Origin: Bacteroidia bacterium | GTDB lineage: Bacteria > Bacteroidota > Bacteroidia > UBA8524 | DNA: 64,000 nucleotides | Direction of reading: 5' to 3' | Assembly: GCA_035906255.1 (NCBI GenBank) | Contig: JAMIFM010000022.1 | Location: 6,856-70,855 of the forward strand | Shown here: one piece after another, positions 5,695 to 42,180 of the stretch | Numbering within the stretch: position 1 is the stretch's first letter | Layout: every line of letters begins with the position of its first letter | The notes under the pieces: generated by a model | Seen by the model: the letters and a program-made list of their open reading frames with translations, nothing else | Told to the model about the DNA's origin: nothing | Database searches by the model: none | Made by a program: the position numbers and the translations under genes

Positions 5695-6612
5695 TTAATC
5701 ATTAATGTGCTGCTCATAAATAGCTCCAGAACTAGAATGTATAAAGGGGTCTAACTCAGTCCTTAGATTACTTAAATCATCTAATTGATTGATAAATAAC
5801 TTAACAAATAGCATTTCTTCTTTTGTTAAATGGTTGTTTATAGCAAATCTTAAATAATCAAGTTTATCAGATGGTATATTACTATGTAAAATACACTTAT
5901 ATACTGCAATAAATTTATAAATAAGCGATTGAATATCATTATAGTACTTTTCTTTTTTTAAGGTGTTAAACATTGCATTAATAAGTTTATCAACTAATTT
6001 GTCACGTTCTTTAACACTTTTAAGTTCTAAGTTAGAATAATGTTGTTCAGCTATAGCATTTGTAAAACAAAGAGTAAGAAGAGTATTTTTAACTGTCTTA
6101 AAAGCATTTATTCCTTTATTATTATCAATAACAAAATTATCTCTACTATTCTCATACTTCTCAAGCAATTTGAATACGATACTCTCCAGCCGTTCTAATT
6201 TTGCGTTTTGTTCAGTGCGCTCCATGATAGCAGCACTGTTTTTCATTTCTTCAACAGATTGTTTTAGTGCATCCGATGCAGTTTTAAGTTCTTCTTTCTG
6301 CACTAAAAAGGAATTGTAAAGTAGTATAATAGTAATGAGGGATAATACAGGGGCAGCTATCCCATTAAAGAAATTACCTATTTTATCGAACTCTTTAATA
6401 CAAAGCAATTGGTTGATTACAATAAATAAAACAATCAATACGATGGTAATACCTATCACCCAACCAGTAAAGTTTCGACTCTTTTTATATTTAAATAAGG
6501 ACTTAAAATCATCTATTTTAGTAGCGTCTTCAATATGACTTGACAATTTTCTATACGAAAATAGAAACTCATAATTGGAATTTATTAACAAAAGGTAATA
6601 GCTTCTTGTCAT
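5695..6612 (-). CDS. low-GC membrane-anchored protein, possible abortive-infection (putAbiC-like) family; paralog of 51087..51836
   Basis: 305 aa. An N-terminal TM segment is followed by a conserved G-IAAPVLSLI-LLY-FL-Q block that is shared with the ORF at 51087, then a long coiled-coil-like region. Codon usage is very AT-rich relative to its neighbours. Confidence 0.45.
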   Translation of the reverse strand: MTRSYYLLLINSNYEFLFSYRKLSSHIEDATKIDDFKSLFKYKKSRNFTGWVIGITIVLIVLFIVINQLLCIKEFDKIGNFFNGIAAPVLSLITIILLYNSFLVQKEELKTASDALKQSVEEMKNSAAIMERTEQNAKLERLESIVFKLLEKYENSRDNFVIDNNKGINAFKTVKNTLLTLCFTNAIAEQHYSNLELKSVKERDKLVDKLINAMFNTLKKEKYYNDIQSLIYKFIAVYKCILHSNIPSDKLDYLRFAINNHLTKEEMLFVKLFINQLDDLSNLRTELDPFIHSSSGAIYEQHIND

Positions 6613-6845
6613 TCTGACCGAAGGGAAGAATCCTATTATAATTGTGTTAACAAAGCGATATAAGATGCTTCACTACCGTTCAGCAGGACAGGTAGTGAAC
6701 AATATTTGCTCCCTATGAACAGGTTGTCTCGTCAGCAGAAGACGAATTCCTCACAATGGTGCAAAGGATTAACCAATTTTTAAATTTTAAAATCTCCAAA
6801 TCAGTTAATTAAAGCAAATCGTCCTTCGGCAAGCTCAGGAGGGAT
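6605..6845. repeat. copy A of a mosaic intergenic repeat family
   Basis: It contains the modules gtcattctgaccgaagggaagaatcc and tccttcggcaagctcaggaggg. These recur at 11090-11610, 13030-13095, 41972-42180 and 49985-50345. Confidence 0.6.
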
Positions 6846-9800
6846 CACATATTCCGCCTATATTGGCCGCCAACTTCAAACAAAGCGTTGGTTATTTGTC
6901 CCAATGAGCAGTATTTAACCGCTTCCATCAGTTGTTCAAACAAGTTGCGGTTTTCTATGGCTGCTTTTTGCAGTTCGGCAAGCAGTTGGGGGGCTTTGTC
7001 GGCGTGTACCTTGTGCAACGCTTCCATAGCGGTAATTTGGTAATCTTTTTCCTCCTTGGTACTACGTATTACCTCTTGGGGAACAACGGTAGGCGAACCT
7101 TTTGACGATAAGAAAGTATTTACCCCAATTATCGGGAACTCTCCGGTATGTTTTAACGTTTCGTAATACAGGCTTTCCTCTTGTATTTTGTTACGTTGGT
7201 ACATGGTTTCCATTGCACCCAGTACACCTCCGCGCTCGTTAATACGATCAAACTCAGCCAATACAGCCTCTTCTACCAAGTCGGTAAGCTCTTCAATGAT
7301 AAACGCCCCTTGTATTGGGTTTTCGTTCTTAGCCAATCCCAACTCTTTGTTAATAATCAATTGGATGGCCATTGCACGGCGTACACTTTCTTCGGTAGGT
7401 GTAGTAATAGCCTCGTCATAGGCGTTGGTATGCAAACTTTGGCAGTTATCATAAATAGCATACAATGCCTGCAAAGTGGTGCGTATATCGTTAAAATCAA
7501 TCTCTTGTGCGTGCAATGAGCGTCCGCTGGTTTGAATGTGGTATTTCAACATTTGGCTGCGCTCGTTGGCTCCGTATTTGTTTTTCATGGCTTTTGCCCA
7601 AATACGGCGGCTTACACGGCCTATCACGCTGTACTCAGGGTCGATACCGTTGCTAAAGAAAAACGATAGGTTAGGAGCGAAGTCGTTAATGTCCATACCC
7701 CTGCTCAAATAATACTCTACATACGTGAAACCATTTGATAATGTGAGTGCTAACTGCGTAATAGGATTGGCTCCGGCTTCGGCAATGTGATACCCGCTAA
7801 TTGACACCGAATAGAAGTTACGCACGTTCTTATCAATAAAATATTGTTGAACGTCGCCCATTACCCTCAAACTGAACTCTGTGCTAAAAATACAAGTGTT
7901 TTGGGCTTGGTCTTCTTTCAATATATCAGCCTGCACAGTACCGCGTACTGAAGCAAGGGTTTTTATTTTTATAGGCTCATACACTTCGGCAGGTAATACT
8001 TGGTCGCCTGTAACGCCCAACAGCATCAACCCTAAACCGTCATTCCCTTGTGGCAGATCGCCTTGGTATTTAGGTTCGGGCAAACCTTTAGCGGCAAAAA
8101 TAGCGTGCACCTTTTGGCGCACTTCTTCTTCTAAGCCGTTTTGTTTGATGTATAGCTCGCACTGCTGGTCGATTGCGGCATTCATAAAGAATGCGCAGAT
8201 AATGGCCGCAGGGCCGTTTATCGTCATAGATACCGAAGTAGTAGGGTCGGCAAGGTTAAAGCCTGAATACAATTTTTTAGCAGCATCCAAACTCCATACC
8301 GATACACCCGAGTTACCTACTTTACCATAAATATCGGGGCGGTAATCAGGGTCTTGGCCATATAGGGTTACTGAATCAAATGCAGTAGAAAGGCGTTTGG
8401 CAGGCATACCCAAACTTACGTAGTGAAAACGGCGGTTGGTACGCTCAGGGCCACCTTCGCCCGCAAACATACGGGTAGGGTCTTCGTTCTCACGTTTAAA
8501 GGGGAACACGCCCGAAGTGTATGGGAACTCACCGGGTACGTTTTCTTGCAACATCCAGCGCAATAAGTCGCCCCACGCTTGGTATTTGGGCAATGAAACT
8601 TTAGGAATACGGGTATGGGATAATGACTCACTAAACGTTTTGATTTTCAGTTCTTTATCACGTACTTTAAAGATGAAATAATCGGCTTTATAGCTCGCTA
8701 CTTTGGCTTCCCACTCCTCTAACAACTTCTTGTTTTTAGGGTCGAGGTTTAATTCAACCTCTTTGTAAGCAGCTTCTAAAGCGGCTATCAAATTATCTTT
8801 GTCAGCCGTTTTGGTTTCTTTAATCGTTGCAATGCTTTGGTGCAGGCTATACAGCTTTTGTGCAGTAGCTACCTGTTGATCCACCCAACGGTCATACGAA
8901 CGGTTACTTTCGGTAATCTCGCTCAAATAGCGGGTACGTTCGGGGGGAATGATGTATATCTTTTTCGACATTTCTGCCGATACTTCAAACGTTGATTGTA
9001 ATGGAGCACCTGTTTTAGCCACCAACATATCAATAATGTTGCGGTACAGGCGGTTCATGCCCGGGTCGTTAAACTGCGAAGCAATCGTTCCAAATACAGG
9101 TATTTGCTCATCGGGCGTGTCCCATAACTGATGATTGCGTTTGTATTGCTTTTTCACATCGCGGATAGCATCCAATGCACCACGCTTGTCAAACTTGTTC
9201 AAAGCAATAATGTCCGCAAAATCCAGCATATCAATTTTCTCTAACTGTGTGGCCGCACCGTATTCGGGGGTCATCACATACAGGCTCATATTGCTATGCT
9301 CAATAATTTCAGTATCGCTTTGCCCTATCCCCGAAGTTTCAAGGATAATAAGGTCAAATTTTGCAGCCTTTACAATATCTACCGCTTCTTTCACATACTT
9401 GCTAAGGGCAAGGTTACTTTGGCGGGTAGCCAACGAACGCATATACACACGCGGGTTGCGGATGGCGTTCATGCGGATACGGTCGCCCAGCAATGCACCA
9501 CCTGTTTTACGTTTAGAAGGGTCAACCGATATAATGGCGATGGTTTTGTCTTTAAAATCAATTAGGAAACGGCGCACCAACTCATCCACCAATGACGATT
9601 TACCTGCACCACCCGTACCCGTAATACCCAACACAGGGGTTTTAACGTCGTTGCTCAGTTGCTGTATTTCAGTCAGCATGGGGGCAGCTTCGGCATAGTC
9701 GTTTTCGGCTGCTGAAATAAGGCGAGCAATGGCTTTTACATCGCGCTCGGCAAGGTGTTTCACTTGACCGTTCAGGTTTTTACCCGTAGGGAAGTCGCTT

Positions 9801-10234
9801 TGGGTTAGCAAGTCGTTTATCATGCCTTGTAAGCCCAATTCACGCCCGTCGTCGGGAGAATATATACGGGCAATGCCGTACTCGTGCAGTTCTTTAATTT
9901 CTTCGGGAAGTATTACCCCGCCGCCGCCGCCAAAAACGCGTATATGACCGCAACCGCGCTCGTTCAGCAGGTCGTACATGTACTTAAAGTACTCCATGTG
10001 TCCGCCTTGGTAGCTGGTAATGGCAATGGCCTGCGCATCTTCCTGTATGGCGCAATCCACAATCTCGGCCACGCTACGGTCGTGCCCCAAGTGTATCACC
10101 TCGGCACCGCTACTTTGCAGTATGCGTCGCATGATGTTGATAGCAGCGTCGTGCCCATCAAACAAGGCAGCAGCAGTAACAATACGGATTTTGTTCTTTG
10201 GTTGGTATATCTCTACGGCGGTAGCTGTACTCAT
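6845..10234 (-). CDS. icmF: fused isobutyryl-CoA mutase (IcmF: B12-binding + MeaB-like GTPase + mutase)
   Basis: 1129 aa. The N-terminal B12-binding domain has the DxHxxG pattern (DGHDAAIN). The central P-loop GTPase has [12 protein letters not shown]. The C-terminal region is a methylmalonyl/isobutyryl-CoA mutase TIM-barrel. Confidence 0.9.
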
Positions 10235-10341
10235 GGTTTACAGTTTAAGAAACCGCAAAGGTAAGGAATTTTGGGGGATGTGGGAATTTGAACGTTTATT
10301 GGATATTCTTCTATCTTTGTTTAGGAATATAACACTGAAGA

Positions 10342-11073
10342 ATGAGTAAGGTAAGAATAAAAATTGCATTCTTAGGACATGTGCAACACAATATTAGTAA
10401 GGAAAAAATTTTGCGATGGAAATCCTCGTTATTTCTAATAAATGCTCCAATAGATACTTACACAATAAATAACAATTCAGATATAGATGATTGGAGTTAC
10501 TCGGATGTAACAATCCAAAATGAATTACCCACTAATTTCGACGGGGATATTCTAATAGCTATAACAAATGTACCGATAGAAGATAATTATTTTGCACGAA
10601 GGTTAACGAATAATAGACTTTGCCTCAGTTTACATGAAATGAGTGATATTTTAAAGTTAGATAATATACCACTTGAAAATTTGATTTTCAGAGTATGTTA
10701 TGCTTTATCTTTAATTTTCAAGGAATGCAATAAACTCCCCACAATAGCTGAATATTCTAAATTTACTCATGATGAAACCAAAGGATGTATCTTTGATATG
10801 AATGGTATAAAAACAGATATTATTTATTCTACGAATAAGCCAATATTATGTGATTCATGCAAAGAACGATTGAAAAAAGTGAAAATAGAAAGTAATCTTA
10901 TTGATGATATTCAGAGTGAACTAAACAAAATTAATAAAACATTATATTATAGAATTACTGACTTTGTGAAAAAAGAACCTGTTTGGTCTATACTTATCTC
11001 ATCTTTAGCTGCTATTGTATTAGGGACTATTGGTTCTTTAGTTGCGTCAGTTATTTTCGAAAAAATAAAATAA
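10342..11073 (+). CDS. hypothetical protein, soluble N-domain with single C-terminal TM anchor
   Basis: 243 aa and very AT-rich. The C-terminal hydrophobic helix is SILISSLAAIVLGTIGSLVASVIF. Cys pairs are present (CDSC). I recognise no family. Confidence 0.4.
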   Translation: MSKVRIKIAFLGHVQHNISKEKILRWKSSLFLINAPIDTYTINNNSDIDDWSYSDVTIQNELPTNFDGDILIAITNVPIEDNYFARRLTNNRLCLSLHEMSDILKLDNIPLENLIFRVCYALSLIFKECNKLPTIAEYSKFTHDETKGCIFDMNGIKTDIIYSTNKPILCDSCKERLKKVKIESNLIDDIQSELNKINKTLYYRITDFVKKEPVWSILISSLAAIVLGTIGSLVASVIFEKIK

Positions 11074-11089
11074 TTTTATATTTTAATTC

Positions 11090-11610
11090 TCCCGATTGGA
11101 GAATGTCGAAGTGGAGCAGAGGTGATGGTTGTTGCGGATAGAGAGAAAAAAGCAGAAACAATTTTCGTCATTGCGATAAAACCGTCTTCGGGTTTAGAAG
11201 CAATCCGTTTGCATAGTTTCAACGGGATTGCTTCAACCAAGCTGCGCAAGGCATTGCAATGACGGGGTGGTGTGTTTCTTAACTCACCCCAGCTATTGGC
11301 AAGACTTCGATTACTCAATTTCTCCCTCTCTATGCAAAAGAGAGGGACGACGTGGTGAACGTCGGGCTTTGTAATTATTCGGGGGTGAGTTAAAAGGCAC
11401 ACCTCCCTCAATCCCTCTTTATTCAAGGAGGGGAGCCACCCTGCAAGCCATTTACAGACGTACGAATATTTTGTCTAACCTGATAACTTTTAACAGATAA
11501 CCAATCTGTGAGCCAGTGCCGTTGCCAAGTTCCCCTCCTTGGTTGAGTTTGCGGGAAAGGCAAGGAGGGGTTAGGGGAGGGTCTTTTAAATCAACCTGCT
11601 TAGGCAATAC
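11090..11610. repeat. copy B (largest) of the mosaic intergenic repeat family
   Basis: GC-rich palindromic modules gtcattgcgataaaaccgtcttcgggtttagaagcaatccg, ggaggggag/ctcccctcc and agagggacgacgtgg. Its reverse complement is found at 50240-50290. Confidence 0.6.
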
Positions 11611-11613
11611 CGT

Positions 11614-12870
11614 TTATGTTCCCGGGGCTTGTAACTCAGCGTAAAAACCCTGAGGGTCTTCGCCAATATAGGTTATTGTACCTTTAAGCGTTTGCCCGTG
11701 ATTAAATGATGAAATATTAATGGCTTTAAGGTATCTACGAGGATTAAGTCCCATAAGCCATGTGCCGCTCGGCTTCCATATCGATCCCGCCGAGGGGTAA
11801 TACGCCTCTTTTACCATATAGCTATATTTATTGACAAGTGTAGCAATAACTTCCATTTCAGGCATGCTATCGTATTGTAAAGTACCTTTTAGCGTTTCTC
11901 CGTGATCATCACTAAATATATTCAGCTTTATTACGTGTTGTTTTAGGTAGCCGAATGTCCATCTGTTGATGGGGTTTTCCGGTAATTCTCCCAAGTCGAT
12001 TTGAACTTTATAATTGTTATGTATCAGTGCGTAAAGTACCTGCTGCTGGGTTTGCTCAAACATAAAGTTTCGCGTATTAAGACACCAGTTAATATAGTTT
12101 TTGAGTTGGAAATTCTCGGTGTTTGCTATATATGCATCTAATGCGGTTTGCGGCCCATCATCAAACTTAGACTTAACAATATAGGGAGCTTCAAACTCAG
12201 CCCCGTAAGTAAATAGTTGCTTGATTACCCCCCTAAAGAGATTTAATACATGATCGTGTCTACCTAATCTAAGGTTTACAAAATCAATATAGTTATTTAT
12301 GGTTGCTGTATCGGTATTACGATTGGTGGCGGGCGAAAGGGATAAGTAATAGGTGCCGTTCCAATTCCTAAAGTTTTCACTAATTATACTAAAAAAATAT
12401 TTAAAGTGATCTATACCGGTAGCTTCGCTAATGGGATTGTCCCAGAATACATCCAGTGCGTTTAATTTGTGATAAGACATAAATCCATAAAGATTGCTTG
12501 CAAATCGGTTTATATCTCTTTTAGGGTCGTCGGATACAAATAACTGGTTAATCATGTTTTTATCATTAGAAGCTAATGTAATTCCCAGTTTAATATTAGA
12601 GTTGTTTTCTTTGGCATCGCGTGTGAGGTTCTTCATATATATCGGACTGTCTGTTTGCAAGGTATATGAAGAACCATCCCCTTGGGGTATGGTGTATGCA
12701 CTTGTGGGAACAATCTTTACTGAGTACATATATAAAATATCTATACTTTGGTAAACATCATATTTGATAAGGTTTTGATAGCTGCTGTCAGGGTCGTCGT
12801 ACTTGGTTCCAAAAATGTCGTGCTCTAAATAAATCCAAGCGTTGGAAAGGTTTTGCGGGGTTGTTTGCAT
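11614..12870 (-). CDS. two-domain protein: GH18 (chitinase-like) TIM-barrel lacking the catalytic Glu, plus a C-terminal OAA-family lectin
   Basis: 418 aa. The N-terminal ~280 aa follow the GH18 strand pattern: AWIYLEH, IDILYMYSVKI, KLGITLAS and LNALDVFWDNP. The last is in place of DGxDxDWE. The C-terminal ~135 aa hold two internal repeats, SDDHGETLKGTLQY and NHGQTLKGTITYIGEDPQGF, that align with OAA repeats (GDDGQTLNGTMTYAGEGPIGF). No signal peptide. Confidence 0.6.
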   Translation of the reverse strand: MQTTPQNLSNAWIYLEHDIFGTKYDDPDSSYQNLIKYDVYQSIDILYMYSVKIVPTSAYTIPQGDGSSYTLQTDSPIYMKNLTRDAKENNSNIKLGITLASNDKNMINQLFVSDDPKRDINRFASNLYGFMSYHKLNALDVFWDNPISEATGIDHFKYFFSIISENFRNWNGTYYLSLSPATNRNTDTATINNYIDFVNLRLGRHDHVLNLFRGVIKQLFTYGAEFEAPYIVKSKFDDGPQTALDAYIANTENFQLKNYINWCLNTRNFMFEQTQQQVLYALIHNNYKVQIDLGELPENPINRWTFGYLKQHVIKLNIFSDDHGETLKGTLQYDSMPEMEVIATLVNKYSYMVKEAYYPSAGSIWKPSGTWLMGLNPRRYLKAINISSFNHGQTLKGTITYIGEDPQGFYAELQAPGT

Positions 12871-13382
12871 AATGATAAGGTTTAGTTAGTTAGCTGTATA
12901 ATTAATAGTTTATCAAATATATTAAAACATTAGATGTTTTTAAGTGTTTATTTTTTTTAAATAATATTCTTAATAACTATTAGGTAGAGCTTAAAGCGTG
13001 AGGTATTAGTGTATGGACATAGTATATATTTGCCCGAAGTTTCCTCGCTACGCGTCGGAATGACAGGATGGGTGATGACGTTTTTGGGAGGTGTTTATCT
13101 CAAATGCAAAAAATGCATCAGAAAATTTTTAAATGCTGTGTTTGTTCTTTAGCATTTCCAATTATATGGGAGTGAATGTTCTTTGATTTGAAACCCGACC
13201 GGAAGAAACCCTTGGTAATAGCGTAACAAAAATAACAATGTAACCGAGTAACATCGTAACACGGTTGTTTTTACGAGGTTAATACACCGTAAATCAAAAT
13301 CGCGTATACTTTAAAATTTGAGGGGCAGGTGAGGCTTAGTGTTGTATATTGTAGTATTTGCTATTTGGAAATGAGCTATAAA

Positions 13383-13415
13383 CAAAAACTCCCGACGAAC
13401 AAAGTTCATCGGGAG
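13383..13415 (-). terminator. rho-independent terminator downstream of nrdA
   Basis: A 12-bp stem (ctcccgacgaac/gttcatcgggag, one mismatch) is followed on the minus strand by a T-run. Confidence 0.6.
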
Positions 13416-13486
13416 CGGAGATTTATATCAGACAATTTGAAACAGTGACTTGGAGCAAGATTCCGAAACAAGTTCGGGATGACTTT

Positions 13487-15985
13487 TTAGCTTCCGCACA
13501 TTTCGCAGCCCTCAGGATTATCCAGCGAGCAGGCAATAATGGCCATCGCTTCATAATCGGGGGTAGCATCTTGTGCGTTGTGCATTTTTTCTATCTCTGC
13601 CTTATCAATGGTAGGGGCAGATGTAGTAGTAGTAGGTATTGTAGCCGTTGCGGTAACTTTTTCGTTTGCAAGATCAAAAGCGGCATTTTCAGCAGTGGTA
13701 ACATCCATCACTTGTGGGTTTTCTTTTACCACAGTAAACTTAATCGCATCAGTAGCAGCCTTGGTGCGCAAGTAGTACATACCTGTTTTCAAGCCTTTTT
13801 CCCATGCGTAGAAGTGCATACTGGTTAGTTTACCAAAGTTGGGGTTTTCCATAAACAGGTTCAGCGATTGTGATTGGTCGATAAATGCACCACGGTCGGC
13901 AGCCATATCAATAATCACTTTTTGCTTAATCTCCCAAACGGTTTTGTAAATCTCTTTTATGTGTTGTGGAATTTCATCAATGTTTTGGATTGAACCATTG
14001 CTCATGATGATTTTTTGCTTCATACTGTCGTTCCACAAGCCCAAATCCACAAGGTCGTGCATCAGGTGTTTGTTCACAATCACAAACTCACCCGATAGTA
14101 CGCGGCGAGTGTAAATGTTGCTGGTGTATGGTTCAAAACACTCGTTGTTACCCAATATTTGTGCAGTACTTGCTGTAGGCATAGGTGCTAATAGCAAGCT
14201 GTTGCGCACACCGTATTGTTTAATTTCTTCGCGCAATACATCCCAGTTCCAGCGGCTGCTTGGAGTTACTCCCCACATATCAAACTGGAAGATACCTTGT
14301 GATATGGGCGAACCTTCGTACGATGCGTAGTGACCTTCTGCTTTTGCCAAATCTTTTGAAGCTACTAACGCAGCGTGGTAAATGGTTTCAAAAATCTCAG
14401 CGTTTAGTGTTGCCGCTTCGGGCGAATCGAAGGGCATACGCAACATAATAAAGGTATCGGCCAAGCCTTGCACACCAAGCCCGATAGGACGGTGGCGCAT
14501 ATTGCTGTTGCGGGCTTCTTCAACAGGGTAGTAGTTACCGTCGATGATGCGGTTTAGGTTGATGGTTACTTCGTAAGTAGCATCAAACAAGGCATCATGG
14601 TCAAACTTACCGTTGATAATGTATTTAGGCAACGCCATTGATGCAAGGTTACATACGGCAACTTCATCAGGGGCGGTGTATTCTATAATCTCGGTGCACA
14701 GGTTGCTGCTTTTAATGGTACCCAAGTTCTTTTGGTTGCTTTTGCTGTTGGCAGCATCTTTATACAACATATAAGGGGTACCGGTTTCAATCTGTGATTC
14801 AAGTATTTTGTTCCACAGTTCGCGGGCTTTAATGGTTTTGCGTGCGCGGCCTGCTTCTTCGTAGGTGTGATAAAGGTCTTCAAACACTTCGCCGTAGCAA
14901 TCGGCCAAACCTTTTGCTTCGTTCGGGCAGAACAGGCTCCATTCACCGTCTTCTTTCACACGCTTCATAAACAAATCAGGTATCCACAAAGCGTAGAATA
15001 AGTCACGTGCACGCAATTCTTCTTTACCGTGATTTTTCTTCAAATCCAAGAAATCGAAGATGTCAGCGTGCCAAGGTTCAAGGTAAATAGCAAATGAACC
15101 TTTACGCTTGCCGCCACCTTGGTCAACATAGCGGGCAGTATCGTTAAATACGCGCAGCATAGGTACAATACCGTTGCTGGCACCGTTTGTACCGCGTATG
15201 TATGAACCGGTAGCACGTATATTGTGTATGCTAAGCCCTATACCGCCTGCGGTTTGTGATATTTTAGCACATTGTTGCAGGGTATCAAAAATACCTTCAA
15301 TGCTATCGTCTTTAGTGGTTAGCAAAAAGCAGCTGCTCATTTGCGGGTTGGGTGTACCGGCATTGAAAAGGGTAGGTGTTGCGTGAGTAAACCAACCTTC
15401 GCTAAGGCGATTGTAGGTTTTTATCACGTTTTCAATATCGCCTTTGTGTATACCGATGGCCACACGCATATACATGTGCTGAGGGCGCTCGGCTACTTTA
15501 CCGTCAAGCTTTAGCAAATAGCTGCGCTCAAGGGTTTTAAAACCAAAGTAGTCAAAATTATAATCGCGGTCATATATAATAGTACTGTCAAGCAATTCTG
15601 CATTGTCAACAATTACCTCATATACATCATCGGCAATAAGCGGAGCTTTTTCACTCGTTTTTGGGTTCACGTAGTTAAACAACCTGTCCATAATCACACT
15701 AAAATGCTTATCAGTGTTTTTGTGCAGGTTACTTACCGCAATACGGCTGGCAAGGATTGCATAATCAGGGTGTACCGGAGTCATACTTGCAGCAGTTTCG
15801 GCAGCAAGGTTATCTAACTCAGTGGTAGTAACACCGTCATATACTCCTTCAATTACTTTCTTCGATATTTTTATAGGGTCAACAAAATTAGTATCAAGCG
15901 CATACGACAGTTTGTTGATACGCGCGGTAATTTTGTCAAACATAACGCTCTCGCGTTTTCCGTCTCTTTTAATTACATACATCAT
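13487..15985 (-). CDS. nrdA: ribonucleoside-diphosphate reductase alpha subunit (class I)
   Basis: 832 aa. N-terminal ATP-cone ([16 protein letters not shown]), the catalytic core and a C-terminal CxxC tail (CEMCGS). Confidence 0.95.
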
Positions 15986-16039
15986 AGTAAGGTCCTCCGG
16001 TAAAGGTTGTATTTATTGGCAAATATTTTCAGGGTTGTA

Positions 16040-17086
16040 TTAAAAATCTTCGTCGGTGCTAAAAGTGTCGGCAGTATCCCCACCTGTTTTTCGGTTGGCT
16101 ACAGCGGCTTTTTGATATTCGCCCACCCGTTTTTCAAAGAAGTTGGTTTTGCCTTGCAGCGAAATCATCTCCATAAAATCAAACGGATTGCTTGCATTAT
16201 AGATGCGTGGGCAGCCTAATTCTACAAGTAAGCGGTCGGCTACAAACTCAATGTATTGGTTCATCAAATCTGCATTCATACCTATTAACCTCACGGGCAA
16301 GGCATCAGTAACAAACTCTTTTTCAATTTCAACAGCATTGCTTATTATCTCAATAATACGTTGCTGAGGCAGTTTGTTCACAATGTGCTTATTGTATATG
16401 TGACAGGCAAAATCACAGTGCATGCCTTCATCGCGGCTTATTAATTCGTTGCTGAAGCTAAGGCCGGGCATAAGACCGCGTTTTTTCAACCAAAAGATTG
16501 AACAAAAACTACCCGAGAAGAAAATACCTTCAACGGCAGCAAAAGCTATCAAACGTTCGGTGAAACTTGCATTGCTAATCCAACGCAATGCCCACTGGGC
16601 TTTTTTCTGCACGCAATCAAGGGTATCAAGGGCGTGGAAAAGGCCGTCTTTTTCAGCAGGGTCTTTAATATAAGTATCTATCAACAACGAGTATGTTTCG
16701 CTGTGGATATTCTCCATCATAATCTGGAAACCGTAAAAGAATTTTGCCTCGGGGTATTGTACCTCAGCCACAAAGTTCTCTGCAAGGTTTTCATTCACAA
16801 TACCATCGCTGGCAGCAAAAAAAGCCAGTACGTGTTTAATAAAGTGACGCTCGTTGTCGTTAAGTTTATTTTGCCAATCAGACAAGTCTTGTTGCAGGTC
16901 TATCTCTTCAGCAGTCCAAAAGCTGGCTTCCGACTTCTTATAGAATTGCCATATATCATCGTGCTTAATAGGGAAAATAACAAAGCGGTCTTTGTTTTCT
17001 TTTAATATGGGTTCTTCGTTCACATTCATAATCGTTGCTGCGGGCACCGCTTGGCTTAGGGAAACTACTTCGGGGCGTTCATCCAT
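16040..17086 (-). CDS. nrdB: ribonucleoside-diphosphate reductase beta subunit (class I R2)
   Basis: 348 aa. It has the ferritin-like diiron ligand pattern (E..H / E..H) and the R2 C-terminal tail. Confidence 0.95.
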
Positions 17087-17788
17087 GGCTTTAGCTGTGT
17101 TTTGGTTACTACTTCCTAAAGGGTAATTTTGTGCTTCTTTCTTCTAAATCAATTAGGTACCGATAAAAATTGCCCTGTCGTTTCCAACAGGACATACTGG
17201 CCTAATTGCCTATACAAATCTTCGTTTATTAAATAGTTTTACCAACCCTGAGATTTTCACATTTCCACAAAAACAGAGTGTATAACTAATTATCAACACG
17301 ACGGCCTTAGAAGCAGTGGTAACAGAGGGCTACAAAGGGAGTTTATCTACACGTAATGTTTGCTTAATATTTTTATAATGTGAAAAGAGTGTGTTAAAGA
17401 TGTACTACAACCATTGAAAACAGTAGGTTTTTATAGCTAAAAATGACTGAGTGGTATTAAATACACTGCTTTAGCCCTTATTTTTATAGACAATCGGCTG
17501 TATGCCTTTATTTATAAAGGATTGAGGGAAACGAACGTTTAACCAATGGTTATGGGCTTACGTAGCAGGGATTTACGGGTAAATGACTAAGTGGTCTTTT
17601 ACTAAAAAGTTAAAAGTTTTAGAAGAAAAGCAATGTGGATAGAGTTTTTTAGAAATATTACCCTGTGTTTTAGAAAAGAAACAATTGTTGCTTTATAGTA
17701 CCGTTTTACCGTTTCATTCACATTTTGTAAAAAGTGTTTCAAGGTAAATTAGTACGTTTGCCAAACAAATAAACTAAACGCAACCACT

Positions 17789-18229
17789 ATGTACGAGTTT
17801 TTGAGAGGTACGCACTCTGTTCTTCGCTATGTTATTCTGCTGGGCGGTATTGGTGCTGTAGCAACCATACTTATGAATGCTAAAAGCAGGGTACGCTTGT
17901 TTTCAACCATTTTTATGGTTTCGTGCCACATACAGTTTGTAATCGGATTTGTATTATACTTTATTGTAACCGATTGGTTTAAACTGCTAAAAGAAAATGC
18001 AGGAGAGGTAATGAAAAACAGCACGTACCGCTTTTTTGCTGTTGAACATTGGTTAATGATGCTGATAGCTATTGTTATGATTACAATCGGGCACGGTAAG
18101 GCAAAAAGGGCATTGGTAAACAATACTCCGTTGCGCCCAACACTTATACTTTATGTAATAGCCCTATTGGTGATTTTTGCGGCAATTCCTTGGCCGTTTA
18201 GAGAAGCACTTGGTCGCGGCTGGTTATAA
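17789..18229 (+). CDS. hypothetical membrane protein
   Basis: 146 aa with four predicted TM helices and no catalytic motif. Confidence 0.45.
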   Translation: MYEFLRGTHSVLRYVILLGGIGAVATILMNAKSRVRLFSTIFMVSCHIQFVIGFVLYFIVTDWFKLLKENAGEVMKNSTYRFFAVEHWLMMLIAIVMITIGHGKAKRALVNNTPLRPTLILYVIALLVIFAAIPWPFREALGRGWL

Positions 18230-18237
18230 TAGTTACA

Positions 18238-18723
18238 ATGGAAACCTTTGAGGTTTTGTTATTGTTGGTTGCGGGTCTGCTAATATTGGCGGGCATTGCA
18301 GGCTCGGTTTTGCCTGTGTTGCCGGGACCTCCCATAGCCTACGCAGGATTGTTGATAACCCACTTATTTACTCCCGTTTCGTTCTCAGTAGTATCGTTGG
18401 TGATTTACGGCATTTTTACTTTGTTAATTGTGGCCGTTGATTACTGGCTACCCGCGTATTGGGTAAAGAAAACAGGAGGGACAAAATGGGGTAGTTACGG
18501 AAGCATTACAGGTATGTTGGCAGGGATATGGTTTTTTCCGCCGCTGGGTATGCTTGTAGGAACGTTTATAGGAGCTGTGGTAGGAGAGTTGATGGCAGGA
18601 AAAGATAACGACGCTGCGCTAAAATCAGGTATCGCTACATTTTTTGGCTTTTTAGCAGGCACTTTATTAAAAGTGGCATTTTGTTTGGTGATGTTGATAC
18701 ATTTTGTAATAGCACTTTTTTAA
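18238..18723 (+). CDS. DUF456 family membrane protein
   Basis: 161 aa. The VLPVLPGPP motif and TM topology are typical of DUF456. Confidence 0.6.
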   Translation: METFEVLLLLVAGLLILAGIAGSVLPVLPGPPIAYAGLLITHLFTPVSFSVVSLVIYGIFTLLIVAVDYWLPAYWVKKTGGTKWGSYGSITGMLAGIWFFPPLGMLVGTFIGAVVGELMAGKDNDAALKSGIATFFGFLAGTLLKVAFCLVMLIHFVIALF

Positions 18724-18749
18724 TTCTTGCCCTATAGGGCGCATTCATT

Positions 18750-19613
18750 TTGAATATAGGTATCAGATATATGCTCATAGCAACGTTTTGCTTTGCCATT
18801 ATGAACGTTACTGTGAAAATGCTGCCCAACATCCCCATTTTCGAGATTATTTTCTTTCGTAGCGTTATCACGCTGGGTATGGCCATGTTGGCTCTTAAGC
18901 AAAAAGGCATCCCAATGTTTGGCACCAATAAAAAGCTGTTGCTGTTACGCGGCTTGTTCGGCTCAATAAGTTTGCTGCTTTATTTTATCACTCTTCAAGA
19001 AGTGCCGCTGGCATCAGCAGTTACCATACAATACCTGTCGCCCATTTTTAGCACCTTAATAGCCATCTTTATATTAGGGCAGCCCATGAAACCTATTAAG
19101 TGGCTGTTTTATGCCATAGCTTTTGCAGGTGTATTTGTAGTAAAAGGGTTTGACGACCGTATATCGTTGTTAATGTTCCTTTGCGGGGTTGGTTCTGCAA
19201 TACTCTCCGGCTTTTCGTACAATACCATTGCCAAGTTGAAAAATGAAGACGACCCTTTGGTAGTAGTGATGTACTTTCCGTTAGTTACATTACCCTTATC
19301 AATAATACCAACAGCAATGACATGGGTGACACCTACATGGACAGAATTATTTTGGCTGTTGATTATGGGCGTATCTACTCAATTAGGTCAATTGTATATG
19401 ACAAGGTCGTATCAGGTTGAAAACATAGGCAAAGTTGCCATATTTCAATACATAGGGCTGGTATTTGCCTTAATGTTCGGATACTTTTTGTTTGATGAAA
19501 CGTTTAATACCCAAAGCATATCAGGTATGGTGTTGTTAGCAGGCGGGGTTATTATGAGTGCTATTTATGGTACTATCGAAACCAAAAAACTAAGTGCTGT
19601 GTCTAAAAACTAA
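18750..19613 (+). CDS. DMT (EamA-like) family transporter
   Basis: 287 aa with 10 TM helices and a duplicated EamA-like pattern. Confidence 0.7.
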   Translation: MNIGIRYMLIATFCFAIMNVTVKMLPNIPIFEIIFFRSVITLGMAMLALKQKGIPMFGTNKKLLLLRGLFGSISLLLYFITLQEVPLASAVTIQYLSPIFSTLIAIFILGQPMKPIKWLFYAIAFAGVFVVKGFDDRISLLMFLCGVGSAILSGFSYNTIAKLKNEDDPLVVVMYFPLVTLPLSIIPTAMTWVTPTWTELFWLLIMGVSTQLGQLYMTRSYQVENIGKVAIFQYIGLVFALMFGYFLFDETFNTQSISGMVLLAGGVIMSAIYGTIETKKLSAVSKN

Positions 19614-19617
19614 AGGG

Positions 19618-20514
19618 CTATTTAACTGCAATAAATTTCCACGATTCTATCAACTCCTTAGGGCCTTCTTTAAGGTAGCGAAGGTAAATAGCGGTTTGGT
19701 GTGTGCCCGTTGTTGTATTGTGTAAATACACATAGTAGTCTTGCAACTCAAAAATATCCGCATTGGTGTATAGCTCAGGATTATCCACCTGCTGTTTAAT
19801 CATTTGGCGTATCCCTGTAAGTTCCTGAGCACCGTTAGTTTCATCGGGCAGGGTAAACAATTTAACTTCAATTAAACCGTTTTCGTCCTTGGTTTCTAAT
19901 GTAGTAGTTGCGGGTAAATACTCAGTATTGTAGGGGTTCTTCATCTCATCCGCATAGTCAAAAGTACTTTTGCGTTTAAGCTGGCTGCCATACAGCATAA
20001 AAAAGAATTCAATCTCTTCGGCAAAGTACTTTTCAATTTCTTCCTTGCTGTCCAGCTTCTGTTTCCAATAGTCAAGCTCCGCAACATCTTCACCTTTTGA
20101 GAATTTCTTTTTTTGGTCGGCAACTTCAAAGCACTTGTTTTTTAACTGTTCCCAATTCTTTACCCCATAGTATTTTCCTGAACTATCAAGCAATAAAACA
20201 ATGGGTTGTGTTTTTTTTACGTCTTTCACAAAAGCAGCAATGCCCATTGTTGCATAAAGAGGTTCAATGCTTTTGGTGTAGTTGTACTTTAGTTCAATTT
20301 CAGTACCTTTTTTGCTGATAGATAGCACTTTAAATGTGGCAATAACAGTATCCTTATCTTGTATATAGGTTGAGTCTTTGGGAGTGTACTTATTCTTAAA
20401 AAAGTAATAGCTATACACATCGTTTGCCTTCCAATTGGGTAAAAAATGATGAGTTTGGGCATTGCCGGCCAACGTACAGGCAGCAAGTGTGAAAAATAAG
20501 GCTAATTGCTTCAT
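19618..20514 (-). CDS. secreted hypothetical protein
   Basis: 298 aa. Signal peptide MKQLALFFTLAACTLAGNAQ. The mature part is Lys/Glu-rich. Confidence 0.45.
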   Translation of the reverse strand: MKQLALFFTLAACTLAGNAQTHHFLPNWKANDVYSYYFFKNKYTPKDSTYIQDKDTVIATFKVLSISKKGTEIELKYNYTKSIEPLYATMGIAAFVKDVKKTQPIVLLLDSSGKYYGVKNWEQLKNKCFEVADQKKKFSKGEDVAELDYWKQKLDSKEEIEKYFAEEIEFFFMLYGSQLKRKSTFDYADEMKNPYNTEYLPATTTLETKDENGLIEVKLFTLPDETNGAQELTGIRQMIKQQVDNPELYTNADIFELQDYYVYLHNTTTGTHQTAIYLRYLKEGPKELIESWKFIAVK

Positions 20515-21143: not shown

Positions 21144-21149
21144 TGTGTT

Positions 21150-22184: not shown

Positions 22185-22190
22185 ACGGTT

Positions 22191-41971: not shown

Positions 41972-42180
41972 TGCCTTGGATTTCCTGAGTTTGCCGAAGG
42001 AGCCCTTCGACAAGCTCAGGAACCCGATTATCGTCATTGCGAGGAGGAGGCACGACGACGTGGCAATCTGTTTATATAGTTTGGACTGGATTGCTTCGGG
42101 AAGACCCTCGCTATGACGATAAAACACTGTCATGCTGACGTAGGAAGCACCTTATCCCGTTTTGTTAATAACAGTTGTAA
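41972..42180. repeat. copy D of the mosaic intergenic repeat family
   Basis: Modules ccttcgacaagctcagga, tcgtcattgcgaggagg, cctcgctatgacg and gtcatgctgacgtaggaagcacc. The last is the reverse complement of 50085-50110. Confidence 0.6.

What the first reader, a model, noticed from the sequence alone, without database searches (positions are those of the whole stretch)
10264..13486. AT-rich accessory island between icmF and nrdA
The stretch between the conserved genes icmF and nrdA holds three things: a strongly AT-rich 243-aa orphan protein (10342..11073) with a soluble domain and a single C-terminal membrane anchor; a 520-bp GC-rich mosaic repeat (11090..11610) that generates a spurious ORF; the lectin-fusion gene; and about 600 bp of AT-rich non-coding DNA (12871..13486) that contains another repeat fragment (13030..13095). 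Its composition and codon usage contrast with the flanking genes, which suggests horizontal acquisition. The orphan protein has the architecture of a membrane-tethered effector (N-terminal globular domain, C-terminal TM), but I cannot place its family.
Basis: seen in the sequence. Interest (0 to 1): 0.5.

Follow-up and report, generated by a model that had tools for sequence, protein, structure and literature searches.

The report
Swappable gene slot beside icmF
The stretch is not one foreign island: only a 0.8-kb AT-rich single-gene cassette next to icmF looks imported, and it encodes a membrane-anchored, catalytically stripped relative of archaemetzincin proteases from a widespread unannotated family that sits where sister genomes carry anti-phage genes.

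Summary
The coordinates and features are mostly right, but the single-island reading is not. Window 10264-13486 is a junction of two synteny blocks with four unrelated parts.

1. An ~830-bp AT-rich cassette (10265-11097) carries orf243 (GC 28%, z -2.9).
2. A 0.5-kb cluster of GC-rich nested palindromic repeats lies at 11085-11613.
3. A GH18+OAA-lectin gene is native. Its GC3 z is 0.0, and it follows nrdB-nrdA in two relatives.
4. A 616-bp spacer holds the nrdA terminator and a strain-variable indel site.

orf243 is not an orphan. It has 471 homologues and 620 representatives at 50% clustering, across Bacteroidota, Proteobacteria, Chlorobi and plasmids. All are named "hypothetical", and Pfam, NCBIfam, PHROGs and PADLOC give no match.

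In the closest icmF relatives only icmF is shared. The same slot holds a PDC-S35 TIR gene, a PycC-like cyclase, or unknown ORFs, and the same repeats bound it. Homologues elsewhere abut Hachiman, Gabija and PDC-M36.

Best reading: a swappable accessory slot, and a candidate stand-alone defence or exclusion membrane protein. The function is inferred, not shown.

The parts
6845..10234 (-). icmF (fused isobutyryl-CoA mutase). This is the conserved anchor gene on the left and is not part of the variable DNA.
   Evidence: Pfam B12-binding, MeaB and MM_CoA_mutase. Homology to relatives L089, L090 and L091 covers only window 6847-10264/10271.
10235..10341 (.). Divergent intergenic region between icmF and orf243. 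A Bacteroidetes-type -7 box TAccTTTG for icmF lies at 10256-10263 (- strand). The synteny breakpoint is at 10264-10271.
   Evidence: Alignment of four icmF upstream regions: 'TA(C/T)CTTTGC' is conserved and similarity is lost just upstream. blastn end points are. The -7 consensus is from established knowledge of Bacteroidetes promoters.
10342..11073 (+). orf243: a tail-anchored membrane protein with a catalytically stripped archaemetzincin-like domain. It is the cargo of the variable slot.
10768..10860 (+). Codons for H143-D144-x4-C149-x3-M153-x16-C170-x2-C173. This is the putative His/Cys3 zinc knuckle plus Met-turn, the remnant of the archaemetzincin fingerprint.
   Evidence: Among 97 diverse members: H143 97/97, C149 96/97, C170 96/97, C173 95/97, D152 96/97. 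The M-x16-CxxC spacing is the same as in 2x7m, 3zvs and 3lmc. The Zn ligands of AfAmzA are given in PMC3427221.
10978..11067 (+). Codons for the C-terminal transmembrane helix (residues 213-242). It carries a conserved small/polar stripe: S/T220, A/S/T/G224, G/N/S228, S/N232.
   Evidence: Hydropathy maximum 2.27 at residue 226. Model helix 213-242.
11086..11105 (.). Short hairpin ATTCTCC-N5-GGAGAAT, 12 nt after the orf243 stop codon. It lies at the cargo-proximal edge of the repeat cluster. A similar hairpin (CTTCTCC-TTAA-GGAGAAG) occurs inside the L089 repeat cluster (L089 8558-8576), about 155 nt downstream of the stop of the last cargo ORF.
   Evidence: Fold. Alignment and sequence of L089.
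11085..11613 (.). Cluster of GC-rich nested palindromic (REP/MITE-like) repeats between the convergent genes orf243 and the lectin gene. Unit A is 11166-11264. Unit B is 11265-11407, with terminal inverted repeats TTAACTCACCCC / GGGGTGAGTTAA. Unit C is 11424-11541.
   Evidence: MFE -193 kcal/mol, z -6.9. Inverted repeat I5 and match I3 to 50245-50278. k-mer matches. Unit A occurs in L089 8388-8564 (78%) and at the end of L085. Unit B occurs in L091-93 53-128. Rfam gives no match.
11076..11426 (-). 116-aa ORF lying within the repeat cluster. It is most likely spurious, as is the 51-aa ORF at 11452-11607 (-).
   Evidence: No Pfam match. It lies wholly in palindromic repeat DNA that is only 78% identical between strains whose flanking genes are 94-97% identical.
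11614..12870 (-). GH18-like (EndoS-type TIM barrel) plus OAA-family lectin fusion, 418 aa. It has no signal peptide or TM segment. It is a native gene, syntenic with nrdB-nrdA, and its catalytic motif is degenerate.
   Evidence: Pfam GH18 5.9e-9 and SBD 1.7e-7. NCBIfam OAA 7e-19. GC3 z 0.0. The order nrdB-nrdA-lectin is kept in L085 and L086. DxDxE reads D-V-F-W-D. Only 8 homologues exist. No hydrophobic segment.
12871..13486 (.). AT-rich spacer. It contains the upstream region of the lectin gene, a 10-nt repeat core at 13055, an indel site at 13360-13381, and the nrdA terminator at 13388-13416 (-).
   Evidence: GC 34.1%. Terminator with 13-bp stem plus T-run. The sister strain L086 has an extra ~620 bp with a 185-aa multi-TM ORF exactly here.
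13487..15985 (-). nrdA (class Ia ribonucleotide reductase, large subunit). This is the conserved anchor on the right.
   Evidence: Pfam ATP-cone, Ribonuc_red_lgN and lgC. 86% nt identity to L085 and 97% to L086.

Best explanation
The region is a junction between two conserved blocks, icmF on the left and lectin-nrdA-nrdB on the right. A cluster of palindromic repeats joins them. Only the ~0.83 kb between the icmF promoter and the repeats (10265-11097) is foreign cargo.

This slot is a replacement hotspot. Each close relative carries a different gene there, transcribed divergently from icmF and ending at the same repeat cluster.

In this genome the cargo is orf243, a member of a widespread, unannotated, solitary accessory gene family. 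The protein has three parts:
- a cytoplasmic N-terminal domain derived from the archaemetzincin (metzincin) fold, which has lost the HExxH catalytic motif but keeps a His/Cys3 zinc knuckle and the Met-turn;
- a short helical stalk;
- a single C-terminal transmembrane helix with a conserved small/polar face.

Inferred mechanism (not shown): the pseudo-protease domain acts as a zinc-stabilised binding or sensor module for a protein or peptide cue, possibly from a phage. The tail-anchor helices associate through their polar stripe to perturb the membrane. This would make it a stand-alone defence, abortive-infection or exclusion protein.

The repeats probably act as terminators between convergent genes and as recombination-prone boundaries. 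The lectin gene and the nrdA terminator are resident features.
For: Shown:
- Composition outlier status applies to orf243 only, not to the lectin gene.
- Homology to the three closest icmF relatives (94, 90 and 89% aa) stops at window 6847 and at 10264/10271.
- The slot holds a PDC-S35 TIR gene in L089 (PADLOC 9.3e-59, Pfam CAP12-PCTIR_TIR 1.4e-35), a PycC-like cyclase in L091-93 (8.2e-16), and three unknown ORFs in L090.
- Repeat units A and B lie distal to the cargo in L089 and L091-93, and next to the lectin gene in L085 and L086.
- nrdB-nrdA-lectin synteny is kept in L085 and L086.
- The family has 471 homologues and 620 representatives at 50% clustering, all about 245 aa and 'hypothetical'.
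- It occurs on two mobilizable plasmids and next to ICE tra genes.
- No neighbour is conserved across 88 loci.
- Motif: H143 is invariant, C149, C170 and C173 are at least 98% conserved, and M-x16-CxxC has the same spacing as in solved AmzA chains. HExxH is absent from the active-site helix.
- The TM stripe is conserved.

Suggestive for defence: homologues lie directly beside Hachiman plus an AAA_21 pair (L083), PDC-M36A/B (L115, 1.8e-253), GajB (L128, 2.1e-107), a Ppl/mad3-like ATPase (L127), and an Argonaute-associated REase-like protein (L117).
Against: - No experiment or known defence model supports a defence role. PADLOC 2.0 has no hit for orf243 or two homologues.
- The neighbourhood enrichment test was inconclusive, because control icmF neighbourhoods also contain AbiLi, AriA and LmuA hits.
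- Several homologues sit among ordinary metabolic genes (L180).
- The gene is almost absent from phage data: 0 of 50,697 phage genomes and 3 IMG/VR contigs.
- Zinc binding and oligomerisation are inferred from sequence and a monomer model only.
- HMM-level homology to Peptidase_M54 was not detected, so the link to archaemetzincins rests on fold and motif spacing.
- No contig of a close relative spans icmF-repeat-lectin, so cargo replacement within an otherwise identical frame has not been seen directly.
Confidence: 0.55

Rival explanations
1. The whole 10264-13486 stretch is a single horizontally acquired accessory island inserted between icmF and nrdA.
For: The mean GC of the stretch is 36.2% against 40.3% for the window. 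The stretch holds unusual genes: an unannotated family and a lectin fusion with only 8 homologues. None of 80 icmF loci has these genes nearby.
Against: The lectin gene has native GC and GC3 (z -0.5 and 0.0). It follows nrdB-nrdA in a relative with 86% nt identity and in a sister strain. The repeat cluster is shared with relatives on both sides. icmF and nrdA are not neighbours in any relative examined, so there is no conserved 'empty site'. No integrase, tRNA or flanking direct repeats were found.
Confidence: 0.07
2. orf243 is an active membrane-tethered zinc metalloprotease, a divergent archaemetzincin. It would cleave a cytoplasmic or membrane-proximal substrate using a non-canonical active site built from H143, D/H144, E/D145 and D152.
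For: The fold is metzincin. H143 is invariant, D152 is 96/97, and positions 144/145 are mostly acidic or His. The third zinc-ligand His of the AmzA fingerprint aligns with H143.
Against: There is no HExxH and no conserved Glu or His on the active-site helix 111-129; only Y120 is conserved there. The conserved H/C/C/C set matches the structural Cys4 finger of AmzA rather than the catalytic site. Positions 144/145 are not invariant. Even canonical AmzA enzymes were inactive on tested substrates, and homologues lacking catalytic residues (CarG, AMZ1 variants) are discussed as doubtful proteases (PMC3427221).
Confidence: 0.12
3. orf243 is a non-defence accessory membrane protein. Examples would be a CarG-like zinc-dependent protein-interaction or regulatory factor, an anti-sigma-like tether, or a plasmid/ICE maintenance or exclusion factor. 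On this view its location in defence-rich regions only reflects that all cargo accumulates in the same hotspots.
For: There is a precedent for archaemetzincin-like proteins used as non-proteolytic partners: CarG, mentioned in PMC3427221, with further detail from my own knowledge. Copies occur on plasmids and beside ICE tra genes. Some copies lie next to AraC regulators or metabolic genes. Some long variants have extracytoplasmic Sel1/TPR/WG-like extensions after the TM helix. The PADLOC control shows that hotspots are generally defence-rich.
Against: No partner gene is conserved, whether a sigma factor, a regulator or a transfer gene. The TM helix sequence is conserved beyond what an anchor needs. 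Occupancy of exactly the slot that holds PDC-S35 or PycC in sister taxa, and adjacency to Hachiman, Gabija and PDC-M36, fit defence better.
Confidence: 0.25

Closest known systems
Archaemetzincins (AmzA/AMZ1/AMZ2; MEROPS M54, Pfam Peptidase_M54)
   Different: orf243 has no HExxHxxG on the active-site helix. The first Cys of the Cys4 finger is replaced by Asp or His, and there is a 2-residue insertion before the Met. HMM-level similarity is absent. orf243 has an added helical stalk and a C-terminal TM anchor. Its distribution is bacterial, sporadic and on mobile DNA, rather than archaeal or vertebrate.
CarG of Myxococcus xanthus (archaemetzincin-like zinc protein without protease function)
   Same: It is a bacterial archaemetzincin relative in which a catalytic residue is lost and the domain serves as a protein partner. 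It is mentioned in PMC3427221; its role with CarD is from my own knowledge.
   Different: CarG keeps most of the H/C fingerprint, is soluble, and works in transcription with a dedicated partner. orf243 lacks the whole HExxH, is membrane-anchored and has no conserved partner. The relationship was not tested by sequence here.
Single-gene or small anti-phage systems that occupy the same slot in sister genomes (PDC-S35 TIR protein; Pycsar cyclase PycC)
   Same: They have the same chromosomal position, divergent from icmF and bounded by the same repeat cluster. They are small cargo without mobility genes.
   Different: There is no sequence or fold relationship. orf243 matches no PADLOC model. This is positional analogy only.
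Membrane-disrupting TM effectors of abortive-infection systems (for example the TM effectors of Pycsar and CBASS)
   Same: A cytoplasmic sensing or binding domain is linked to TM helix(es), and a polar or small-residue stripe is suited to oligomerisation. This is a 'works-like' comparison from general knowledge.
   Different: Those effectors bind cyclic nucleotides made by a partner cyclase. orf243 is solitary, has a single tail-anchor helix and has a pseudo-protease domain. Nothing about activity was tested.
REP/BIME-type and MITE-like intergenic palindromic repeats
   Same: They are short GC-rich nested palindromes that occur in several copies per genome and lie in intergenic regions between convergent or tandem genes. 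They diverge fast and break assemblies.
   Different: No RAYT (Y1 transposase) occurs in the window, and no Rfam family matches. The genome-wide copy number is unknown, because only 64 kb was seen.
OAA-family lectins and GH18 EndoS-like enzymes (for the neighbouring 418-aa gene)
   Same: The C-terminal two-repeat OAA barrel matches NCBIfam at 7e-19. The N-terminal part is a GH18/EndoS-type TIM barrel.
   Different: The catalytic DxDxE motif is degenerate (D-V-F-W-D), and OAA repeat 1 lacks the GEGPIGF loop. The fusion itself is very rare, with 8 proteins in 5.8 billion.

Membership tests
Archaemetzincin / Peptidase M54 | Metzincin catalytic-domain fold (beta-sheet N-subdomain, active-site helix, Met-turn C-subdomain) | tested here: met
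Archaemetzincin / Peptidase M54 | Catalytic zinc motif HEXXHXXGXXH (PMC3427221) | tested here: not met
   The active-site helix 111-129 has no His or Glu pair. HExxH is found in only 1/50 and 2/97 members, at non-homologous loop positions. Only the last His (H143) is retained.
Archaemetzincin / Peptidase M54 | Cys4 zinc finger CX4CXMX17CXXC with Met-turn | tested here: inconclusive
   Three Cys are retained (C149, C170, C173 at >=98%). The first Cys position is Asp or His. M153 is 50/50 in close members and 65/97 in diverse members (otherwise F or L). The M-x16-CxxC spacing equals that of the solved AmzA chains. Metal binding was not measured.
Archaemetzincin / Peptidase M54 | Significant sequence-profile match to the family | tested here: not met
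   No Pfam hit for orf243 (E<=0.1). No Peptidase_M54 hit appears among the 25 families listed of the 63 matched by 97 members at E<=10; the other 38, each matched by at most one member, were not shown. Profile searches of PDB sequences do not retrieve AmzA.
Genomic island (single horizontally acquired block) for 10264-13486 | Atypical composition across the whole block | tested here: not met
   orf243 has z -2.9, but the lectin gene has z -0.5 (GC) and 0.0 (GC3), and the repeat cluster is GC-rich.
Genomic island (single horizontally acquired block) for 10264-13486 | Presence/absence polymorphism of the block among close relatives | tested here: not met
   Only the orf243 slot varies. The lectin gene and the repeats are conserved next to nrdA in L085 and L086.
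Genomic island (single horizontally acquired block) for 10264-13486 | Mobility signatures (integrase, tRNA target, flanking direct repeats) | tested here: not met
   The ORF list shows no integrase or transposase ORF. The nearest tRNAs are at 911 and 2811. No flanking direct repeats were found.
Known anti-phage defence systems (PADLOC-DB 2.0) | Match of the protein to a defence-system model | tested here: not met
   No hit for orf243 (E<=0.1) or for homologues P0013 and P0046 (E<=0.01).
Defence-island-associated gene family (guilt by association) | Family members enriched next to known defence genes relative to background | tested here: inconclusive
   Adjacent to Hachiman plus AAA_21, PDC-M36, GajB, a Ppl-like ATPase and an Aga-REase-like protein in 5 of about 33 long loci. 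The same slot holds PDC-S35 or PycC in sister taxa. However, the control neighbourhoods also contain defence hits, and the tool output does not allow a proper rate comparison.
REP/BIME or MITE-like palindromic repeats | Short imperfect palindromes, multi-copy, intergenic | tested here: met
   Nested hairpins with z -6.9. Copies of unit A or parts of it occur at 42031-42120 and 50245-50296 and in L085 and L089. Unit B occurs in L091-93.
REP/BIME or MITE-like palindromic repeats | Cognate RAYT/transposase in the genome | not testable with these tools
   None in the 64-kb window (tblastn with a Y1_Tnp query, best E 0.14). The rest of the genome is not available.
OAA-family lectin / GH18 (418-aa neighbour) | GH18 catalytic DxxDxDxE and OAA sugar-binding loops | tested here: not met
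   Domain matches are significant. But the motif reads D-V-F-W-D, with the catalytic Glu changed to Asp and the middle Asp to Phe. Repeat 1 lacks GEGPIGF. Both are intact in the deltaproteobacterial homologues.

The most novel reading that the evidence does not exclude
The orf243 family would be a previously unrecognised single-gene anti-phage (abortive-infection or exclusion) system. A catalytically dead archaemetzincin domain, held together by a His/Cys3 zinc knuckle, would recognise a phage protein or peptide. It would then drive oligomerisation of its tail-anchor helix, through the conserved Ser/Ala/Gly-Asn/Ser stripe, into a membrane lesion. The icmF-proximal slot bounded by palindromic repeats would be a dedicated defence-cassette exchange site in this Bacteroidota lineage.
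Probability: 0.3. Interest if true: 0.7.

Novelty: new variant of a known kind. Interest (0 to 1): 0.45.

Why it matters
At the level of the genome region the finding is ordinary. It is a variable slot next to a housekeeping gene, plus intergenic repeats.

The value lies in the cargo. It belongs to a compact, well-conserved family of about 245 aa, with 620 clusters at 50% identity across several phyla. That family has no name in Pfam, NCBIfam, PHROGs or PADLOC. It can now be described as a membrane-anchored pseudo-archaemetzincin.

Archaemetzincins themselves have no established biological role. A bacterial offshoot that kept the zinc knuckle and discarded catalysis would show what the scaffold is good for.

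If the defence reading holds, it adds a new sensor-effector design to the anti-phage repertoire. It also adds a defined, marker-flanked hotspot (icmF promoter / repeat cluster) for mining further systems in Bacteroidota. Both are directly testable with standard phage-challenge assays.

Tried and rejected
- Sequence-level family placement of orf243 failed. Pfam, PADLOC, NCBIfam and PHROGs gave nothing. Profile searches of PDB sequences with 50- and 97-member alignments found only noise. A Pfam scan of 97 members at E<=10 showed no Peptidase_M54 among the listed families.
- The afdb50 fold library was unavailable.
- Rfam on 10000-13700 found no RNA family.
- A search for a conserved partner gene, by clustering 542 neighbour ORFs from 88 loci, found none.
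- A defence-enrichment test with PADLOC on 150 neighbours against 144 control ORFs was not interpretable. The output is aggregated by model, reverse transcriptases inflate the counts, and the controls (icmF neighbourhoods) also carry AbiLi, AriA and LmuA hits.
- The phage-origin idea was rejected: no tblastn hit in 50,697 phage genomes and only 3 IMG/VR contigs.
- Classical island signatures (tRNA, integrase, direct repeats) are absent.
- A RAYT for the repeats is not present in the window.
- A presence/absence test of an 'icmF-nrdA insert' is impossible as framed, because no relative has the two genes adjacent.
- Literature searches for metzincin plus anti-phage, and for Peptidase_M54, returned nothing.
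- I considered an integron attC-like role for the repeats. I did not pursue it, because no integrase or cassette array is present.

Full report
**What is at the coordinates**

The layout of the window is as follows:
- icmF at 6845-10234 (-)
- a 243-aa ORF at 10342-11073 (+)
- a non-coding stretch at 11074-11613
- a 418-aa ORF at 11614-12870 (-)
- a 616-bp spacer
- nrdA at 13487-15985 (-) and nrdB at 16040-17086 (-)

Pfam confirms IcmF (B12-binding, MeaB, MM_CoA_mutase) and NrdA. It labels the 418-aa protein Glyco_hydro_18 plus OAA-family lectin SBD. NCBIfam LectinOAAFamily matches residues 302-412 at 7e-19.

**Composition**

Across 54 plausible ORFs of the window, mean GC is 40.1% (sd 4.1) and mean GC3 is 38.8% (sd 6.2).
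- orf243 has GC 28.1% and GC3 20.9%, both z = -2.9. It is one of three extreme outliers. The others are 5695-6612 and 51087-51836.
- The lectin gene is typical, with GC 38.0% (z -0.5) and GC3 38.9% (z 0.0).
- The 11074-11613 stretch is GC-rich (45.9%).
- The two spacers are AT-rich (34-35%), as intergenic DNA usually is.

The compositional contrast is real, but among the two protein-coding genes of the stretch it applies only to orf243.

**Comparison with relatives**

A scan of one genome per GTDB species with IcmF returned 80 loci with up to 10 kb of flank. None encodes NrdA, NrdB, orf243, the lectin or orf305 near icmF.

A protein search then found much closer IcmF proteins, at 94%, 90%, 89%, 89% and 89% identity. 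Their contigs L089, L091-93 and L090 share with the window only icmF itself. blastn homology runs from window 6847 to 10264 or 10271 and stops.

An alignment of the four upstream regions shows a conserved TA(C/T)CTTTG box, 22 nt upstream of the icmF start codon. This fits the Bacteroidetes -7 promoter consensus, which I cite from established knowledge. Similarity is lost immediately beyond it.

On the right side the picture is the opposite.
- L085 has 86% nt identity to window 13380-23029 and carries nrdB-nrdA-lectin in the same order. The lectin is 60% identical at the amino-acid level.
- L086 is a sister strain, 97% identical over nrdA and 94% over the lectin gene with its upstream spacer. 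It has nrdA-lectin as well.

The lectin gene is thus resident and belongs to the nrdAB block.

**The slot next to icmF**

In each close relative a different gene occupies the position directly upstream of icmF and divergent from it.
- L089 has a 286-aa TIR protein plus an 85-aa ORF. The TIR protein matches the PADLOC candidate system PDC-S35 at 9.3e-59 and Pfam CAP12-PCTIR_TIR at 1.4e-35.
- L091-93 have a 410-aa NOV_C plus class III cyclase protein. It matches Pycsar PycC models at 8.2e-16.
- L090 has three small unknown ORFs.

In the window the occupant is orf243.

The GC-rich repeats mark the far end of the slot in these relatives too.
- L089 8388-8564 aligns to window 11098-11270 at 78%.
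- L091-93 53-128 align to window 11320-11397. They carry the same terminal inverted repeats, TTAACTCACCCC and GGGGTGAGTTA.

The same repeat family also follows the lectin gene in two relatives.
- The L085 contig ends inside '...CGTCATTGCGAGG...GAAGCAATCC', about 85 bp after the lectin stop.
- The L086 contig ends within the repeat at 78% identity, although its flanking genes are 94-97% identical.

The conserved frame is therefore: icmF promoter | cargo | palindromic repeat cluster. The repeat cluster is also the seam to the lectin-nrdAB block. No contig of a relative spans the whole seam. Replacement of cargo inside an otherwise collinear frame is therefore inferred, not directly seen.

**The repeat cluster**

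Region 11085-11613 folds into nested hairpins. The MFE is -193 kcal/mol against -156 ± 5 for shuffles (z -6.9). I distinguish three units:
- Unit A, 11166-11264. The outer stem is CGTCATTGC...GCAATGACG and the inner stem is GAAGCAATCC...GGATTGCTTC.
- Unit B, 11265-11407. It has 26-nt inverted arms (I5).
- Unit C, 11424-11541.

Parts of unit A recur at window 42031-42120 and 50245-50296. Rfam has no match.

The cluster sits between two convergent genes. REP/BIME-like elements typically lie in such positions and can act as terminators; this is an inference. No Y1 (RAYT) transposase is encoded in the window.

**The spacer 12871-13486**

- It contains a strong intrinsic terminator for nrdA at 13388-13416 (- strand), with a 13-bp stem and a T-run.
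- It contains the region upstream of the lectin gene.
- The claimed repeat fragment at 13030-13095 shares only the 10-nt core TCGGAATGAC (13055) with the other repeat sites.
- The sister strain L086 carries an extra ~620 bp at window 13360/13381, directly after the terminator. This insert is AT-rich and has a 185-aa ORF with several hydrophobic segments. It is a second, smaller variable site.

**orf243 is not an orphan**

- The 5.8-billion-protein search gave 471 hits at E<=1e-3. The 120 best hits listed are 47-60% identical over the full length, and nearly all are 240-250 aa.
- The few hits that carry an organism name come from Pseudomonas, Chryseobacterium, Flavobacterium, Chlorobaculum, and delta- and gammaproteobacterial MAGs.
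- An exhaustive profile search of 1.84 billion representatives found 620 clusters at E<=1e-3 and 204 at E<=1e-30.
- All named members are 'hypothetical protein'.
- Two copies are on mobilizable plasmids (Ca. Tenderia electrophaga and Vibrio campbellii), among integrase, transposase and group II intron genes.
- One copy lies about 9 kb from Bacteroidetes conjugative-transposon tra genes.
- No hit occurs in 50,697 phage genomes, and only 3 occur in IMG/VR.
- I clustered 542 neighbour ORFs from 88 loci and found no conserved partner. The gene travels alone.

**Fold of orf243**

With a 50-sequence alignment, AlphaFold2 gave pLDDT 91.2 and pTM 0.84.
- Foldseek agrees, with 2x7m at E 6.8e-4 and prob 1.00.

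The archaemetzincin fingerprint is HEXXHXXGXXHCX4CXMX17CXXC. In AfAmzA, His117, His121 and His127 bind the catalytic zinc, and Cys128, Cys132, Cys151 and Cys154 form a Cys4 finger next to the Met-turn (PMC3427221).

I recovered the motif sequences of the solved chains from the PDB. An example is MkAmzA: HELGHTFGLGHCPDRNCVMSFSSSLLEVDRKSPNFCRRC.

The family reads ...F-T-H143-D144-E-T-R/K-G-C149-L/I-F-D152-M153-(16 residues, with P167)-C170-x-x-C173. The following elements are retained:
- the last His
- the second Cys
- the Met
- the 16-residue spacer, including the Pro
- the CxxC

The first Cys is Asp, or His in some branches. The HExxHxxG part is gone. The corresponding helix (residues 111-129) carries only one strongly conserved residue, Y120.

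Among 97 diverse members, conservation is H143 97/97, C149 96, D152 96, C170 96, C173 95 and Y120 93. HExxH occurs in only 2 of 97 and 1 of 50 sequences, at non-homologous loop positions.

Sequence-profile methods do not connect the family to Peptidase_M54.

I therefore describe it as a derived archaemetzincin-fold domain that most likely keeps a structural His/Cys3 (or Asp/His-Cys3) zinc site and has lost metalloprotease catalysis. It is not a member of M54 by the family's own definition.

**Membrane anchor**

There is no N-terminal hydrophobic segment (maximum 19-residue hydropathy 0.24), so the domain should be cytoplasmic. The only hydrophobic segment is residues 213-242, and only about one residue remains after it. 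This is a tail-anchor.

The helix is more conserved than an anchor needs to be. P213 is 91/97, and a stripe at i, i+4, i+8 and i+12 is small or polar throughout the family:
- position 220: S/T/A/G
- position 224: A/S/T/G
- position 228: G 37, N 42, S 12
- position 232: S 49, N 28

Small-xxx-small motifs and membrane-embedded Asn are known to drive helix-helix association (general knowledge). Homo-oligomerisation is therefore plausible but untested. A few longer members add Sel1/TPR or WG-like repeats after the helix.

**What orf243 might do**

The evidence is contextual.
- In sister genomes the very same slot holds a TIR-domain candidate defence gene or a Pycsar-type cyclase.
- In L083, a homologue's upstream neighbours within 7 kb are a HamA plus helicase pair (Hachiman) and an AAA_21 two-gene module.
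- In L115, a homologue lies 25 bp upstream of PDC-M36A (1.8e-253), with M36B also present.
- In L128, GajB (2.1e-107) lies about 300 bp upstream of a homologue.
- In L127, a homologue lies next to a Ppl/mad3-like ATPase (6.1e-24).
- In L117, a homologue lies next to an Argonaute-associated REase-like protein (1e-8).

That is 5 of about 33 long loci.

Against this:
- PADLOC has no model for the family.
- Other copies sit among ordinary genes.
- My control set of icmF neighbourhoods also contains AbiLi, AriA and LmuA hits, so I could not establish enrichment.

My best-supported mechanism has probability about 0.3-0.4. It is a stand-alone defence, abortive-infection or exclusion protein. Its pseudo-protease domain binds a trigger, and its tail-anchor helices assemble to damage or gate the membrane.

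The main rival is a non-defence accessory membrane or regulatory protein, in the manner of CarG, an archaemetzincin-like non-protease. A non-canonical active protease is less likely.

**The lectin fusion**

It has only eight homologues in the 5.8-billion set. The deltaproteobacterial homologues keep the GH18 D-x-D-W-E motif and canonical OAA repeats. The window protein and its 60% relative P0122 read D-V-F-W-D, and OAA repeat 1 has lost the GEGPIGF loop. The protein has no signal peptide or hydrophobic segment. It is an unusual gene, but it is not part of an imported island.

**Verdict**

It is wrong on 'orphan' and on uniform atypical composition. The interpretation as a single horizontally acquired island is not supported.

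A single-gene cassette in a replacement hotspot is supported. The cassette encodes an unannotated, widespread, membrane-anchored pseudo-archaemetzincin that is a reasonable candidate for a new stand-alone defence gene. This is a new variant of a known fold and of a known kind of genomic hotspot. Interest is moderate.

Noticed in passing
window 5695-6612 (-) and 51087-51836 (+): These are two further AT-rich outlier genes (GC 28.0% and 29.1%, z -2.9 and -2.7). They are distant paralogues of each other (BLASTP 21% identity over 196 aa, E 3e-6). Both have two N-terminal hydrophobic segments and a shared G..GGI.AP.LSLI motif. The first lies directly downstream of icmF, where homology to relatives also stops (window 6847), and it hits PHROG 8999 (3e-10, unknown function). 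From memory they resemble AbiC-type abortive-infection proteins, but no Pfam match was obtained.
   Followed up: partly
L086 2798-3355 (corresponds to an insertion at window 13360/13381): A sister strain (97% nt identity in nrdA) carries an extra ~620-bp AT-rich segment immediately after the nrdA terminator. It has a 185-aa ORF with several hydrophobic segments and is absent from the window. This is a second strain-variable micro-slot.
   Followed up: partly
window 11614-12870 (-): The GH18+OAA-lectin fusion is extremely rare, with 8 proteins in 5.8 billion. It has no signal peptide. In this lineage the catalytic motif is degenerate (D-V-F-W-D instead of D-x-D-W-E) and the first OAA repeat is degenerate. 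The deltaproteobacterial homologues keep both and sit beside a RES-Xre toxin-antitoxin pair and a SIR2 gene.
   Followed up: partly
window 41950-42230 and 50020-50340: Two more GC-rich intergenic mosaics are built from related palindromic units. Examples are CGTCATTGCGA...GGATTGCTTC, and TGTCATGCTGACGTAGGAAGCACC, whose inverted partner lies at 50069-50109 (41 nt, 90% complementary). The second mosaic lies about 0.75 kb upstream of the AT-rich gene 51087-51836, with a DNA_alkylation repair gene in between (GC 49.5%, the highest in the window).
   Followed up: partly
L020 13560-14627, and other icmF loci among L001-L080: In unrelated Bacteroidota, the genes next to icmF also include defence-type proteins: AbiLi at 1.6e-44 directly downstream of icmF in Flavobacterium sp. 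MFBS3-15, and AriAB and LmuA hits elsewhere. The flanks of icmF may therefore be a recurrent accessory or defence hotspot across the phylum.
   Followed up: no
L156 / L177 (human-gut metagenome contig and IMG/VR UViG): One homologue of orf243 lies within about 4 kb of inovirus-type replication genes (Phage_CRI / G2P, 3.1e-72). This suggests that at least one copy is carried by a filamentous prophage.
   Followed up: no
L181 11847-13625: In Flavobacterium sp. 2, the homologue is followed by an unknown 255-aa gene and then a DUF6119 protein (592 aa). Conjugative-transposon tra genes (DUF4134, DUF4133, TraG) lie about 9 kb away. DUF6119 had no PADLOC hit.
   Followed up: no
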